Shown here: positions 24,424-31,032 of the stretch, in pieces
How positions within the stretch are numbered: position 1 is the first letter of the stretch
Layout: each line of letters starts with the position of its first letter
Assembly: GCA_013115125.1 (NCBI GenBank)
Contig: JABANN010000312.1
Coordinates: 1 to 40,549, forward strand
Direction: 5' to 3'
DNA from: Perkinsus olseni
Taxonomy: Eukaryota
DNA: 40,549 nucleotides
Position numbers and translations under genes: made by a program
Notes under the pieces: model-generated
Seen by the model: the letters and a program-made list of their open reading frames with translations, nothing else
Databases searched by the model: none
Told to the model about the DNA's origin: nothing

Positions 24424-24560
24424 TAGGTGATCCGACTGTCGGGTGAAGTAACCCCAGGACCAACTGAGCATCAATCAACTAACGACTAGACATGAACTAC
24501 GATCCCGATGGTCGGAGCCCTACCACGTCCGCTAAAAGACCGTCAACACCTTGGGCTGTT

Positions 24561-24757
24561 TTCTAGTCCGCCTGTTCTTCAATGCAGATGGTCGTATTCG
24601 CCTATCCGCCATAGTATGGGGTTTATCCTTGAACATCCATATTGCCTTACCATGGCTAGGTAGAGGTCCATCAGTCAGACATCGGACATCGACAGGCCGT
24701 AAGAAGGCCACATGTCGAGTGGATGGTAATAAGGTCATGTAAAGAGCCTCAACTGAA
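24561..24757 (-). pseudogene. Partial third copy of gene X (one exon plus flanking intron)
   Basis: Near-identical to 21620-21812 and 25925-26046 (HGKAIWMFKDKPHTMADRRIRPS). Confidence 0.85.
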
Positions 24758-25292
24758 ATGTAGCCGAAGTGAACTCACCTATAATAGAATCTCTGTCGGA
24801 CATCGAGGCACATACCCAGGCGTCAACCACCTTGGAATGGGTTACATACATTCGGCCACAGAGGGCGTGAAGATCACCAGGTTCGGGTTTGGGCTCGGAT
24901 CCGGAACTCTACGAAGCGGAAACGCATCGAACCCGGGACGATAGGAAAGCGAAGTCTTTTTTTCAGACTGCGACACCGAGCTGCCCGATCAATGAGACTG
25001 CCATGACCCCGCAGCGCCCTTTCGACTACAACCCAGGTAGAAGGAGCTATTGGAAACACCTAACGACTTAGCCAGAAGTTAGTCATGTCATACAGTATCG
25101 AACATTACGATCTACAGAGAACGGAGAACAGCCAGCGGACCCCAGGTACCACCTAGACGTATCATCGAATAGCTTCACTCGCCCCTGGTGGAGGCATGCC
25201 AGTGGTCAGTCTTAGCGTCTGGGTATCGCCGAGCAGCTTCGCTCCGCCAATAGTTGAGGACATCTTTGACGGTTTGTTGAATCTCATTGGCT
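24746..25292 (-). pseudogene. Diverged duplicate of the 3' end of the STELLO-SDR gene and its downstream DNA
   Basis: Aligns to 26068-26590. Encodes ANEIQQTVKDVLNYWRSEAARRYPDAKTDHWHASTRGE*, versus ...EVARRYPDAMTDHWYPSTKGE* in the intact gene. Confidence 0.85.
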
Positions 25293-26046
25293 GGTCTTAC
25301 TGAGCGTCTCACCAGGTTGTAGACCGGCAATCACTGGCGAGTCTCTATCATACGCCGGACCCATCTCTTTAGCCTGTACATAGGAATGTGCAAGCCATTG
25401 GAAAGTGGACGACCTCACTTTGTCCGGAGTCATGGACTGTGGCTGTGCGCAGAAGAGGACTCTCTTGTCGTTCATCCGATACTCCTTGAACCATCCCTTG
25501 TCGGATGATGTCGAGAAGCCCTCACCTGGCAAGCAGCCAGCTGAAGCAGCCAAGATCGAATCAATGATACCCCCGCCCACCTGTCACCACTATGCCGGGG
25601 AACGCTCGTTGGAGGGCATTCCGCAAAGTAAAGTAGACGTCGGTTTCTGCGACAGAACATCGTCATCAGGCGCCGAGCAGGGATGCCCCCATCCGACTGA
25701 CCAGTAAATGGCTCGTATACGATATGAATCTTCGTATTGGACTTGTCCGTTGTGGGGTTGTTGAAATCGGTCTGGTAGAACGTCTTGGAGAAGTACTTCG
25801 TACTATAGTACGGCCAACTGAGTAATGATGAATACTAGGTGACGACCAGGCACTGTCCAAGCCAGGCCAACAACTTCAGTCACTTCCGCGTCATGCGGGA
25901 TCTCAAGTGAGTGACTTACTTCTTCCTAGTCGACCTGTTCTTCAATGTAGATGGTCGTATTCGCCTATCCGCCATAGTATGGGGTTTATCCTTGAACATC
26001 CACACCGCCTTACCATGGCTAGGTAGAGGTCCATCAGTCAGACAGC
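25283..26046 (-). pseudogene. Second, terminally truncated copy of gene X
   Basis: Colinear with 20992-21738, including introns. The 3' end is joined to the SDR duplicate at tctcattgg; the 5' end breaks next to the palindrome atatgcgcatat (26049-26060). Confidence 0.85.
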
Positions 26047-26469: not shown

Positions 26470-29400
26470 TCACTCGCCCTTCGTGGAGGGATACCAGTGA
26501 TCAGTCATAGCGTCGGGGTATCGTCGAGCAACTTCGCTCCGCCAGTAGTTGAGGACATCTTTGACGGTTTGTTGAATCTCATTGGCTGGCATCCATCCCG
26601 TTAGGTTGCGCAACTGACAGCATGATACCATCAAAGGGCAGTAGGCGCTGTCATGTCTACCTTGGCGTTGTCAGCGATGAGTACAGCTTCATCATAGGCC
26701 CGCATTCTACTCTCATCCTGCCTCAGCTCAATGCGTGGCCCTATAGGAGACTCAGCCAGCACCAGACGGAGGAGTTGTTCGGTGGACAGGACCTAGCGGG
26801 GAGGATGTGAGGATTAACGCCCTTCCCGTTGTCGAACCCCATTGTGCCGACTAGAATCGAACTCCGCAATCTGATCATCGATCCCTTGTCCCTCTCTTTC
26901 AGCAGCGGCGACTGCCTCGGCCACGTAGCTGCCCACGTTATACACCTCTCCCGGAGCGGAAGTCTCCAGGACCTGCAGGATGACCCCAGCACAGGGGATG
27001 GGATCAACTAGGGATGCACTTTGATGAGCTGCGTGGCCGAGTCCCGAACATCAGTTGTGTCTCGACGTGTCTTCAATGCACCATGCCTGGCCGCGGGACA
27101 GTTCCCACTCCGATAAAACTAGCTGGACGTGCCGACCTTATCACGGGCTCCTGCTTCCCGCCCTCGATCATGGCAACTTGACGGGAGAACTCCTGCAGGG
27201 CCAATGCCTCGGTCCCACCAGGCGAGACGTGGATGAAGAGCCGAACAGCTACGCAATGGGTTCCTGAGGGTGACGGAGCCGACCACATGAAGGGGCGGAG
27301 CCCGAAAGCCTCCCACCGTGGGCCTTGTGCTGCTGAAGGCATATCATCTCAGTAGCCGCCTTACTGACACCATAGGGAGACACCGGTCCCATCGGTGCCG
27401 ACTCGGGAATAGGTCGTCCGATGTAGTCCGGGCTATCCGATGTACCTAGAGAAGAATTATCCACAGGCCACCATCAATGGCTGTGGTACTCCCATAGACA
27501 GTGCTGCTGCTTGCCACTAACACCCGTGCACCCATACCCCGGAGGGCCTGCATGACATTAGAAGTCCCCTCGACCTGAACCAACTACCGGTAACCAGCTG
27601 CAGGCCATTCCCTCGATGCTTCTACGTTAGACTTGTAGGTGAGAGTCTCGGACTGGAAGGATACCCCATTGATGGCTTGAGCGGCGAAGTGGAATACCGT
27701 GTGGGGGCGGACCTCTGCTGAGGGCAATCGTGTAGGACGGCATCCGCCGCCACTGACCCCGGATGATGTCCTGTATGCGCTGTGCATCGGTGAGGTCTCC
27801 ATAGGTGAGTTTGATATCCTCCAGCACCCCGGCCAGATTACCGAGATTGGCGCGGTACCGCACCAACCCGAACACAGCATAGTGAGGTCCTTTCACGTCC
27901 TCGGAGTTGGAGAGCCCCACCTGTGATCAGACCTGCTATCATTACTACAAACTCAGGCCATACCAAAGCCTTAGCGATGTTGGAGCCGATCATGCCGTTG
28001 ATGCCTGTTATCCACACACGGACGACCCGTCGTGAGGTGCCTGGTGTGGCCACCGTCGGTGGTGTGTAATAGAGAATGTACGCTCACTGTTGAGAACCCC
28101 AGCAAGCGAAGGCACTCCTTGAGGGGGCACTGCCTTGTGGCCGTTCCCATTAGCCATAGCAGCATCAGCCCAGCTGCGAGAATCCCCAGTGGCAGATGAT
28201 GCTACCCTTGGCCATCGATACCTGGACCGCAATTACAGTCTTATACCTGCCTACCGCTCTAGCGGCTACGTACCCCAAAGATATGAGGGCCTCGATCCAC
28301 CGCTGCACATGGTTGACCTGAACACAAGCAGTAATGCTCCTTGGTCACGACATCGACTGGCGCTATCGTTCGCAGTGAGCCGCCTATGATGATGGAGGAG
28401 AGGACTTGGGATCACCGCATACTGACCTCATCCTCTTCTACGAAGCCCCTGCGGTATAATTCTACGTAGACCTCCTCAAGGCGAGCAGGTAGAGTGCCTG
28501 GTAGAGGTATAGCACAGGACACCCACCACACAGACTACCGCTAGTGGGCACCCATTCCGCCAAGAACTTCATCATAGCCTCTGACTTCTTATAAACCTAA
28601 CGATGGCCCTGCGGGGCCGCCCAGCAAGGAGCATTACATCATCCTCCGCGATAAAGTCAGCAAGATAATCATGAGAGTTTCTGAGCTGCCTCACCCAAGT
28701 ACGGCCTGCCACGGCCACCGAGGCCCCTAGGTCCCAGAGGAGCCTTTGCAGGACCTAAGCAAGTCGTCATCATCATCATCATCAGCAGTAGGGAAGCCCT
28801 GGCGACATACGAAACTCCGCCATATATCACTAACACGTCCGTGGACCTGAGGGGCCCATCACTACCAACGGAGACTCCGAGGTGGGTTACTGTAACAGGG
28901 AGGTAGAGTCCCCATAGAGCATCATAGTCTCTAAAGAGGCATGCTTGTGCGTTGAGAGGCGTGAAGGCTGGAGGGTTCAGGAGGAAAGCTGACGTAGTGA
29001 GCTGGTGGAAATCCACCGGCAGGGGACCTGGCCCCGACAGCATGCTCAGCCACGCGGACCACAGCAGACGCACGGGTTAACCGGTAGATAGCGTCGAAGT
29101 CAGGATCATGATCGGCCAGTGTCTGGACGACAGCCACCTTCCGCGCCCATGTATCTGACCATGGGCCTGCTGCCCAGACTAAGTTCGGACCACCTTTCGA
29201 AGTGGGCTCTGTTATCGTAGTTGAGCGCTGGCGACGGATGTATCGTAGTGGAAAGCCTCTAGGCCACAGGACTTCCTGCGGGTGGACATTGGCTATGTCC
29301 ATACCTGATTGCCGGCAACAAGAGCCTCGGGTAGATCACGGAACGACTACTAATGAGACTAGGCCCTACTACTACGGCTACTATTGGCAATACTACTATA

Positions 29401-31032
29401 AGGATTGAAGACGCTTGGGACCGCGGATGTAGCAGAGACGGTTGTGGGCACTTTGTCAGGGCAACCTGCTCGAAGATGGTACCAAAGTTTCGTCACGACG
29501 ACCTTACAGTCGCCGTTAAAGACGCCATTGGTGATATCCTCGACACTATCGGTGTAGATGATGTTATCGTCGTCTAGATCGAGAATTTTCTCAGCTCCAT
29601 GGACGAGGGCGTATCTTTAGGTACACCACGACATTCATAGTGAGCAAAGATAACTTCCAAAGAGCTCTACAAATAAGCTATGTTCTTCCGTCCAAAGTGC
29701 TTCCACGGCAGCTCCTCCTGACATTTGCTATCACTCCCTCTCCTCAGGTCAACTCCCCACCGCAAAGGCGCCTCCAATGGCCACTTGGTCCTCATCATTG
29801 AGGAAGACAGCCCTCGAGGCCGCAACGTGTTTCTTGAGCTCAGGCCAGAGCTCTCTAGGTCCCTTCTTGTCCCCGGCCACGACCATACACCTACTAGTGA
29901 TATCAGACTCCCCCTGGCACTCCGCTGTGTACCAATTCCCTGTGATCAACATCACATCAGCAGCAACTCTGGGGCCATCGGGCAAATCCTCGGAAATAGT
30001 CGTGATGGCTATCCAATTCGAACCTGAAGGCGAAGTCCGTGCGTGGCAAATGGAGCGACGGGTAACACTGTGCACAGCAAATCGACATACTCGCAGAGAA
30101 AGGCTACTCACAGCAAGGCTCTCCACCACTGCACTTTGACCCTATGGTCCCATTCTTCGGTGCTCCCTCGTCCGAGACGGATCTGGTGGAAGCCACTTGC
30201 CCCTCCCCCCTGTGTAATCTACTACCCATCAAATATTCTTCTGCCCGTGAACTCGCGTTTGATATCCTCAGTGAAGAGTCTCCCACTGACTCCTTCCAAG
30301 GATGGAGATTTCCCGCTGCCATGGTCACCAGCTAGCTTCGCTTCAAGCTCTACAATTCTCGCTTTCAACGAGTCGATCTCGTTCGGGGCGGGCGCGGGGT
30401 ACTAAACGCCATTCCGCTTCGGTTGCCCGTATCACCCAGTAGTACCGTAAGATCCTCATCTCCTATTAGTGCTTCTCTGGCAAGAGAGTAAATGTCCTCA
30501 CCATCTCCATCATCACTGTTACTGACCACTTCCAAGAAGGCTACAGTTGAAAGTATGCCTGCCGCGGTAAGTGTAGAGTAAATGCTTTCTCGAGTAGCTC
30601 CCCAGTGCGTTGTAAAATCCCAATCGAGATGCCGCAGCAAACCGGTATTCGAACTCAGTATCCATTTTACCAACCGGGAGTGGTCCCGGGATCGATTCCC
30701 AGAGTCGTCATCGGTTTACTGAACAACTATTGTTGACGAGAAATCCCGATTTCGGGGTGGCGGAGGGTCCGAGTAGAATGGAGGAGGGTGAGCTTGACTA
30801 CGAATCATGCATAGGGTGAGGCCAGCGGCCACTACGCCAGTGCCCATCGTACTGAGGATAATGGCCTGGCCTCTGTCTGTAACACTCCTCTTGAACGACA
30901 GGACGAACATTTTGAATGGTTGTGAATATACCCGAGGCTGCTGTCCACTGTGTCCCTTCCCTCATTACCGATTAATGTAATGATTGCCGATGATGCTATT
31001 ATCATGATATGTCGATTTGACAGAAGGGCCAT
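26470..31032 (-). CDS. Putative membrane-anchored fusion: STELLO/DUF288 glycosyltransferase-like domain + extended-SDR GDP-mannose dehydratase/reductase-like domain
   Basis: N-terminal anchor MALLSNRHIMIIASSAIITLIG. DUF288 motifs: WIAITT, MVVAGDKKGP, LPWKHFGRKNIAYL, DDDN, WPRGFPL, QTLADHDPDFDAIYRLT, FTPLNAQ, LWGLYLPVTV, RWIEALISLGY. SDR motifs: VWITGINGMIGS, VFHFAAQA, VASSSTVYG, SPYGVSK, VRLFIHVSP, DESRMRAYDEAVLIADNAK|LRNLTGW. A 47-nt intron (28041-28087) joins the domains in frame. Stop at 26470-26472. Confidence 0.8.

What the first reader, a model, noticed from the sequence alone, without database searches (positions are those of the whole stretch)
26470..31032. STELLO/DUF288 glycosyltransferase-like domain fused in frame to a nucleotide-sugar SDR
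Seen: the STELLO-like C-terminal motif (RWIEALISLG|YRWPRV) runs through a ~35-aa linker and a canonical 47-nt GT-AG intron (28087-28041) into ...GVLN-S-TSRRVVRVWITGINGMIGS, with no stop codon. Established: plant STELLO1/2 are Golgi DUF288 proteins affecting cellulose synthase trafficking, with unresolved chemistry; GMD/RMD-type SDRs make GDP-6-deoxy sugars and are normally soluble. Inference: a type II membrane enzyme that makes and uses its own nucleotide sugar in the secretory lumen. That would be a Rosetta-stone clue to the DUF288 substrate, and possibly to wall or surface glycan synthesis in this protist.
Basis: partly seen in the sequence, partly recalled or inferred. Interest (0 to 1): 0.72.

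Follow-up and report, generated by a model that had tools for sequence, protein, structure and literature searches.

The report
Golgi sugar-mutase-like domain fused to reductase
This shellfish parasite has a membrane-anchored enzyme that joins a STELLO domain, shaped like sugar ring-shrinking enzymes, to a GDP-sugar redox enzyme; the same pairing recurs in other microbes and hints at what the unsolved STELLO proteins act on.

Summary
The fusion is real with high probability (~0.9). A 28-exon model (all GT-AG, 934 aa, no internal stop) gives signal anchor + STELLO/DUF288 domain + NDP-sugar SDR. Fused models are deposited for three Perkinsus species, unnamed or misnamed, and 14 non-Perkinsus proteins have the same order, one on a contig barely longer than its ORF. 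No RNA crossing the junction was seen, and a split reading exists in the sequence. The STELLO domain folds like the GT75 GDP-pyranose mutase MtdL (Z 34.2) and keeps its DDD, catalytic Arg and base Asp, but lacks Asp87 and the Mn-binding His. The SDR is closest to RMD, has Thr at the dehydratase Glu and meets no NCBIfam cut-off. It belongs to a clade of long SDRs, apparently eukaryotic, that usually carry an N-terminal anchor, fused or not. Best guess: a lumenal two-step GDP-sugar tailoring enzyme (C4 epimerase or reductase, then pyranose-furanose mutase); transferase is the main rival. STELLO also fuses to transporters and other transferases, so the clue narrows the substrate class, not the sugar. 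I found no paper on the architecture.

The parts
26470..31032 (-). Whole gene model: 28 exons, 934 aa, anchor + stem + STELLO/GT75-like domain + linker + NDP-sugar SDR
   Evidence: tblastn of Perkinsus models; public fused models P0002, P0006, P0128, P0129, P0135
30527..31008 (-). Predicted type II signal anchor (aa ~9-32), split by intron 1 (30968-30559); an alternative first exon from ATG 30910 is used in models P0004/P0135 and is also hydrophobic
   Evidence: hydropathy; P0128 has this N-terminus; first exon not confirmed by RNA
30016..30526 (-). Stem region (aa ~33-144), low confidence in the structure model
28209..30015 (-). STELLO/DUF288, GT75-like domain (aa ~145-512): T149, D179, D245-D247, R305, D345, Q381, R403, D406, R436, H439
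   Evidence: hmmsearch to MtdL E 2e-36; Z 34.2
28222..28273 (-). 52-nt GT-AG intron whose removal makes the conserved GY-x-W/F-P motif and sets the fused frame; retention gives a stop
28027..28208 (-). Inter-domain linker (aa ~513-557), holding the rival stop (TGA 28167-28165) and rival start (ATG 28157)
   Evidence: split models P0004 and P0133
28041..28087 (-).
   Evidence: same junction in P0002, P0006, P0128, P0129, P0133, P0135
26520..28026 (-). Extended NDP-sugar SDR, RMD-like (aa ~558-917): G565-G568-G571, R599/R601, S685, T687 at the dehydratase Glu, Y715, K719

Best explanation
One gene encodes a type II membrane protein with both catalytic domains in the ER/Golgi lumen, where it tailors an imported GDP-sugar in two steps. 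The SDR (NADP(H), Ser-Tyr-Lys triad, no dehydratase Glu) changes C4: most likely a redox-neutral epimerisation with bound cofactor, like other Golgi SDRs, or reduction of a 4-keto-6-deoxy intermediate. The STELLO domain, a divalent-metal GT75 relative, then converts pyranose to furanose through its conserved Arg/Asp pair, supplying an unusual donor to Golgi transferases. Shown: gene model, architecture, recurrence, fold, residues. Inferred: single mRNA, topology, GDP preference, both reactions, their order and coupling.
For: Open 934-aa model. 14 non-Perkinsus STELLO-then-SDR proteins, 1 in reverse order, plus P. chesapeaki and P. marinus models; P0024 is 799 aa on a 2545-nt contig. No Met in the P. 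chesapeaki linker. STELLO model pLDDT 88.5 matches MtdL at Z 34.2, rmsd 2.6 over 322 residues; rice UAM2 22.6; next 11.3. MtdL T13, I15, D40, D109-D111, N112, R159, D195, Q229, R257, D260, R289, H292 are kept (roles from PMC9937993); T13 is a guanine-selecting residue there. Nearest solved SDRs are GDP-sugar enzymes (2pk3 E 2e-28, 7us5, 6x3b). 35 of 48 long clade members have a hydrophobic N-terminal stretch and 39 of 48 have Thr at the Glu site, against Glu in 55 of 94 short relatives. A Cys pair flanking the SDR's first strands is present in 13 of the 17 same-clade fused proteins aligned and both Cys are absent together in the window's protein. Genome holds GMD- and Fcl-like genes. Other STELLO partners among 120 listed hits include TPT/EamA transporter domains (4) and GT31 (3). 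A bacterial locus has STELLO-like and RMD-like genes overlapping (L227). Plant GAE, UXE and some UXS are Golgi enzymes (PMC8636097).
Against: MtdL Asp87 (essential) is Phe and the Mn ligand His287 is Gln; Ser228 is Ala, which cut MtdL activity by about 79% (PMC9937993). The matching Arg was not needed for Arabidopsis STL1 complementation, though it is essential in mutases (PMC4906169). 4 of 14 non-Perkinsus fusions (P0142, P0143, P0145, P0210) have eroded STELLO motifs. 32 of 48 clade members lack STELLO; only 6 of 120 long STELLO hits carry an SDR, one a GalE type. In bacteria only 20 of 80 STELLO-like loci have an NDP-sugar SDR within 5 kb, and 1 of 160 SDR loci has a STELLO-like gene; no background rate. 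The P. chesapeaki model also runs on into a SNAPC3 gene, so Perkinsus annotation does fuse neighbours.
Confidence: 0.4

Rival explanations
1. The fusion and lumenal topology are real, but the STELLO domain is an inverting glycosyltransferase that transfers the sugar made by the SDR to a glycan or protein acceptor.
For: GT-A fold with DxD; Arabidopsis STL needs both Asp motifs but not the Arg, read by the authors as GT activity (PMC4906169, section 8); loss of MtdL Asp87 and His287; unfused clade members carry other long C-terminal domains, one with a weak GT15 hit in P0210.
Against: It is far closer to mutases than to any transferase (Z 34.2 and 22.6 vs 11.3). Arg and both flanking Asp are invariant in 59 of 59 STELLO sequences aligned. 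STELLO is itself fused to other transferases and transporters, which suits a donor supplier.
Confidence: 0.3
2. The fusion is real but the two domains are not chemically coupled: it only co-locates two glycan enzymes on one anchor, or STELLO serves as a sugar-nucleotide-binding or scaffold module.
For: Eroded STELLO motifs in 4 of 14 fusions; fused and unfused SDRs are intermixed in the tree; varied partners on both sides.
Against: The Perkinsus domain keeps most active-site residues; the pairing recurs in both orders and once with a GalE-type SDR (P0149, P0080); adjacent genes in L227.
Confidence: 0.2
3. Two adjacent genes: a STELLO protein ending at TGA 28167-28165 and a soluble SDR starting at ATG 28157, resolved by trans-splicing; the fusion is an annotation artefact or a minor isoform.
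For: This reading exists in the sequence; split public models P0004 and P0133; Perkinsozoa trans-splice (PMC9399869, search listing only); false-looking fusion to SNAPC3 in P0003.
Against: The split ends drop the GY-x-W/F-P motif conserved in homologues; the Met is absent from the P. chesapeaki linker; 14 non-Perkinsus fusions in the same order, one on a contig with only ~145 nt to spare; the fused donor scores higher.
Confidence: 0.1

Closest known systems
Arabidopsis STELLO1/2 (DUF288, PF03385)
   Same: Type II anchor, GT75-related lumenal domain, both Asp motifs and the RGP-type Arg; Pfam STELLO hit above cut-off.
   Different: Only the first ~120 of 387 Pfam positions match; the rest is replaced by an SDR. 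No cellulose synthase context tested.
MtdL/Hyg20 and plant UAM/RGP (GT75 NDP-pyranose mutases)
   Same: Fold (Z 34.2 to MtdL), DDD, Arg159, Asp195, Gln229, Arg257, Asp260, Thr13, Asp40.
   Different: Asp87 is Phe, His287 is Gln, Ser228 is Ala; 23% identity; membrane-anchored and fused, whereas plant UAM acts in the cytoplasm (PMC8636097).
[quoted passage not shown]
   Same: Best solved-structure sequence hit; SDR triad; aligned through the substrate-binding half.
   Different: Anchored and fused; Thr where 2PK3 has Glu and 6X3B has Asp; activity untested.
GMD and GDP-heptose 4,6-dehydratase (7US5)
   Same: PF16363 hit, Arg pair after the second strand, Tyr/Lys/Ser triad.
   Different: No catalytic Glu; TIGR01472 score 95.8 against cut-off 415; a separate canonical GMD exists in the genome.
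Golgi SDRs GAE, UXE, membrane UXS
   Same: Nucleotide-sugar SDRs placed in the Golgi.
   Different: Those act on UDP-sugars; this one's nearest solved relatives act on GDP-sugars, and it is fused to a GT75-like domain.

Membership tests
STELLO/DUF288 (PF03385) | Pfam score above gathering cut-off | tested here: met
   55.4 bits vs 27.8 for P0135; 62.2 for P0129
STELLO/DUF288 (PF03385) | Full-length match including the C-terminal region of the model | tested here: not met
   positions 1-114/120 of 387 only
STELLO/DUF288 (PF03385) | Single N-terminal anchor, type II | tested here: inconclusive
   one hydrophobic stretch in aa 6-36 of the model's first 511 aa; first exon and orientation not shown
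STELLO/DUF288 (PF03385) | Both Asp motifs needed in STL1 | tested here: met
   D245-D247 and D343-P-D-F-D347; motif equivalence to STL1 by spacing, its supplementary alignment not seen
GT75 NDP-pyranose mutase | GT75 fold | tested here: met
   (model of the 94%-identical P0001)
GT75 NDP-pyranose mutase | DDD, Arg159, Asp195, Gln229, Arg257, Asp260 | tested here: met
GT75 NDP-pyranose mutase | Mn-ligand His287 and Asp87 (Ser in RGPs) | tested here: not met
   Gln434 and Phe223 by sequence alignment
GT75 NDP-pyranose mutase | Mutase or self-glycosylation activity | not testable with these tools
   needs assay
GDP-mannose 4,6-dehydratase (GMD) | Catalytic Glu two residues after the triad Ser/Thr | tested here: not met
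   T687; role of Glu from PMC3584063 passages
GDP-mannose 4,6-dehydratase (GMD) | TIGR01472 cut-off | tested here: not met
   95.8 vs 415
RMD-type GDP-sugar reductase | Nearest solved relative; triad intact | tested here: met
RMD-type GDP-sugar reductase | NADPH-dependent reduction of GDP-4-keto-6-deoxymannose | not testable with these tools
   needs assay; no RMD model appeared among the NCBIfam hits
UDP-glucose 4-epimerase (name given to the P. marinus model) | TIGR01179 cut-off | tested here: not met
   93.4 vs 262.3; separate GalE-like copies on C332

The most novel reading that the evidence does not exclude
STELLO/DUF288 domains are lumenal NDP-pyranose mutases, and this fusion marks an undescribed Golgi pathway in microbial eukaryotes that makes a rare GDP-6-deoxy-furanose donor on site. 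That would give plant STELLO a reaction and add GDP-sugar interconversion to the Golgi lumen.
Probability: 0.2. Interest if true: 0.82.

Novelty: new variant of a known kind. Interest (0 to 1): 0.58.

Why it matters
STELLO chemistry was left open in the Arabidopsis paper, and I found no later assay in the library searched. This fusion family gives two independent pointers to GDP-sugars (the partner's nearest relatives and the MtdL-type Thr) and a short substrate panel to test. It also exposes a clade of anchored RMD-like SDRs with a changed catalytic residue for which I found no description. For Perkinsus it predicts an unusual sugar in secreted or surface glycans, which is not shown.

Tried and rejected
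PF03385 search of the own genome found nothing and rang in no control: uninformative with these short exons. Single-exon Pfam scans: 0 of 3 hit. Run search: no RNA holder on record; one run X1, guessed RNA. X1 contigs mix spliced and unspliced stretches, depth falls to 0.9-5 over most of the SDR, 132 pieces were not shown, and no joint over the junction was listed: no verdict. Full-length fold was poor (pLDDT 59.9), so the domain was refolded. The SDR tree is the quick one, not the careful one; it separates the short unanchored SDRs from the fused ones (SH-aLRT 97) but cannot count fusion origins (P0080 had no domain hit and was left out). ESM Atlas gave only sub-0.9 leads. No full-length relative among the best 80 viral loci: matches were SDR-only at 40% or less. 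Earlier scan notes: none. Rejected: GMD, GalE, a frameshifted pseudogene (all introns canonical, frame open). Whether the genome has other STELLO copies rests alone, which found none.

Full report
Observation. The region 31032-26470 on the minus strand reads as one gene of 28 exons, with 27 GT-AG introns and 934 codons without an internal stop. Near-identical public proteins come from Perkinsus olseni (94% to P0129 over the first 509 aa). Three introns in the STELLO part appear as spliced joints in run X1, so that part is transcribed if X1 is RNA, which is a guess. The junction has a real alternative: with intron 28273-28222 kept, or a weaker donor used, the STELLO frame stops at 28167-28165 and an ATG follows at 28157 in the SDR frame. 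Both readings are deposited: fused (P0002, P0006, P0128, P0129, P0135) and split (P0004, P0133). No RNA over the junction was listed.

The fusion recurs. P. chesapeaki (P0003) and P. marinus (P0010) models are fused too; the former has no Met in its linker but also runs on into a SNAPC3 gene, so Perkinsus models alone prove little. Outside Perkinsus, 14 proteins have STELLO followed by the same SDR type (P0024, P0110, P0139, P0140, P0142, P0143, P0145, P0146, P0147, P0179, P0181, P0182, P0210, P0278), one has the reverse order (P0149, partial) and one uses a GalE-type SDR (P0080). These come from the top 120, 18 and 150 rows of three capped searches, so the count is a floor. P0024 is 799 aa on a 2545-nt contig. 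The homologues keep the GY-x-W/F-P motif that only the fused splice form makes. Their source organisms are unnamed; I take them as eukaryotic from anchors, from transcriptome or EukProt sources of clade members (P0141, P0150) and from the gene context of L011. I put the fusion at about 0.9.

The STELLO domain. Its only solved sequence relative is MtdL, a bacterial GT75 GDP-pyranose mutase (E 1e-10 single sequence; 2e-36 with a 59-sequence profile). A model of the 94%-identical P0001 (pLDDT 88.5) matches MtdL at Z 34.2 and rice UAM2 at 22.6, with ordinary GT-A enzymes at 11.3 or less. Homology of STELLO to GT75 was already noted (PMC4906169; I read passages and section 8, not the supplements, whose Fig. 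5a alignment bears on residue matching). Against the MtdL paper (PMC9937993; parts 1-4 of 7 read, supplements not seen), the domain keeps T13, I15, D40, the DDD motif, N112, R159 (proposed nucleophile), D195, Q229, R257, D260 (proposed base), R289 and H292. It differs at D87 (Phe), H287 (Gln), S228 (Ala), S86 (His), R90 (Lys) and N42 (Lys). D87 mutants were inactive in MtdL and H287 binds Mn. T13 helps select guanine there, which leans towards GDP. So it looks and may work like a GT75 mutase but fails two membership features. Pfam matches only the first ~120 of 387 positions.

The SDR. Nearest solved relatives are RMD (2PK3, E 2e-28), a GDP-heptose dehydratase (7US5) and a second RMD (6X3B). 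The triad S685, Y715, K719 is intact, but Thr687 stands where dehydratases have the Glu base (PMC3584063, passages). No NCBIfam cut-off is reached. The genome has a separate GMD with the Glu motif, an Fcl-like gene and GalE-like copies. Of 48 long clade members that I picked have a hydrophobic N-terminal stretch, 39 have Thr at that site and 16 carry STELLO; 94 short relatives start at the Rossmann fold and 55 have Glu. A quick tree separates the short forms from the fused ones with SH-aLRT 97 and leaves fused and unfused long forms mixed. A Cys pair next to the first SDR strands, present in 13 of 17 aligned fused proteins and absent as a pair in the window's protein, fits a lumenal disulfide (inference).

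Mechanism. Most likely (0.4): both domains face the lumen; the SDR alters C4 of an imported GDP-sugar and the STELLO domain contracts the ring. Golgi precedents GAE, UXE and UXS (PMC8636097, passages) involve no net redox change (my knowledge), which favours an epimerase; a reductase is not excluded. Rivals: STELLO as transferase (0.3), supported by the dispensable Arg in Arabidopsis; uncoupled co-location (0.2), supported by eroded STELLO motifs in 4 of 14 fusions; two genes (0.1). Bacterial context is modest: STELLO-like genes often sit beside glycosyltransferase and polysaccharide-export genes (118 neighbours scanned), 20 of 80 loci have an NDP-sugar SDR nearby, L227 has the pair overlapping, and 1 of 160 SDR loci has a STELLO-like gene (L058). 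I had no background rate.

Novelty. Searches for STELLO/DUF288, PF03385, GT75 with STELLO, MtdL, and Perkinsus with nucleotide-sugar or glycan terms listed no paper on this fusion or SDR clade, judged from titles and abstract starts; the library lacks most subscription papers. PMC5466300 (passages) lists DUF288 proteins only as expression targets. Both domains are of known kinds and the fused proteins sit in databases as hypothetical or misnamed, so this is a new variant of a known kind. Interest 0.58: it makes STELLO chemistry testable with a short panel, but names no sugar.

Noticed in passing
window:31149-31394: 44-nt inverted repeats (91%) around 158 nt, just upstream of the gene; depth in X1 jumps to 700-1800, so probably a high-copy MITE-like element.
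   Followed up: partly
window:25017-25294 and 24463-24892: Partial duplicate (79-85%) of the SDR gene's last exon and 3' flank 1.3 kb downstream, followed by a second SNAPC3-like start; an X1 contig splices from this copy (25153) to 24908.
   Followed up: partly
window:19550-21740 and 25293-26046 (-): SNAPC3 (PF12251)-like gene in one longer and further partial tandem copies; the P. chesapeaki model joins its orthologue to the SDR.
   Followed up: partly
window:31473-32963 (+): Intronless 496-codon frame with signal-like start and subtilase domain (Peptidase_S8, E 2e-25), divergent from the fusion gene.
   Followed up: no
P0031, P0058, P0089, P0092, P0028, P0036, P0055: STELLO fused to TPT/EamA transporter domains or to GT31, in unnamed proteins.
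   Followed up: no
P0136, P0138, P0167, P0139, P0140: Anchored proteins with two SDR domains in tandem; in P0139 and P0140 the first copy is degenerate, in P0138 the copies are near identical and may be an assembly artefact.
   Followed up: no
L058:3301-10483: Bacterial-type heptose synthesis cluster with a soluble STELLO-like gene on the opposite strand (gene roles read from motifs, not scanned, except the SDR).
   Followed up: partly
L171:51-1511: Anchored 487-aa eukaryote-type STELLO protein on a 1.6-kb contig of a bacterial MAG; may be contamination.
   Followed up: no
G000:C332:19870-23500: Two GalE-like genes in tandem.
   Followed up: no
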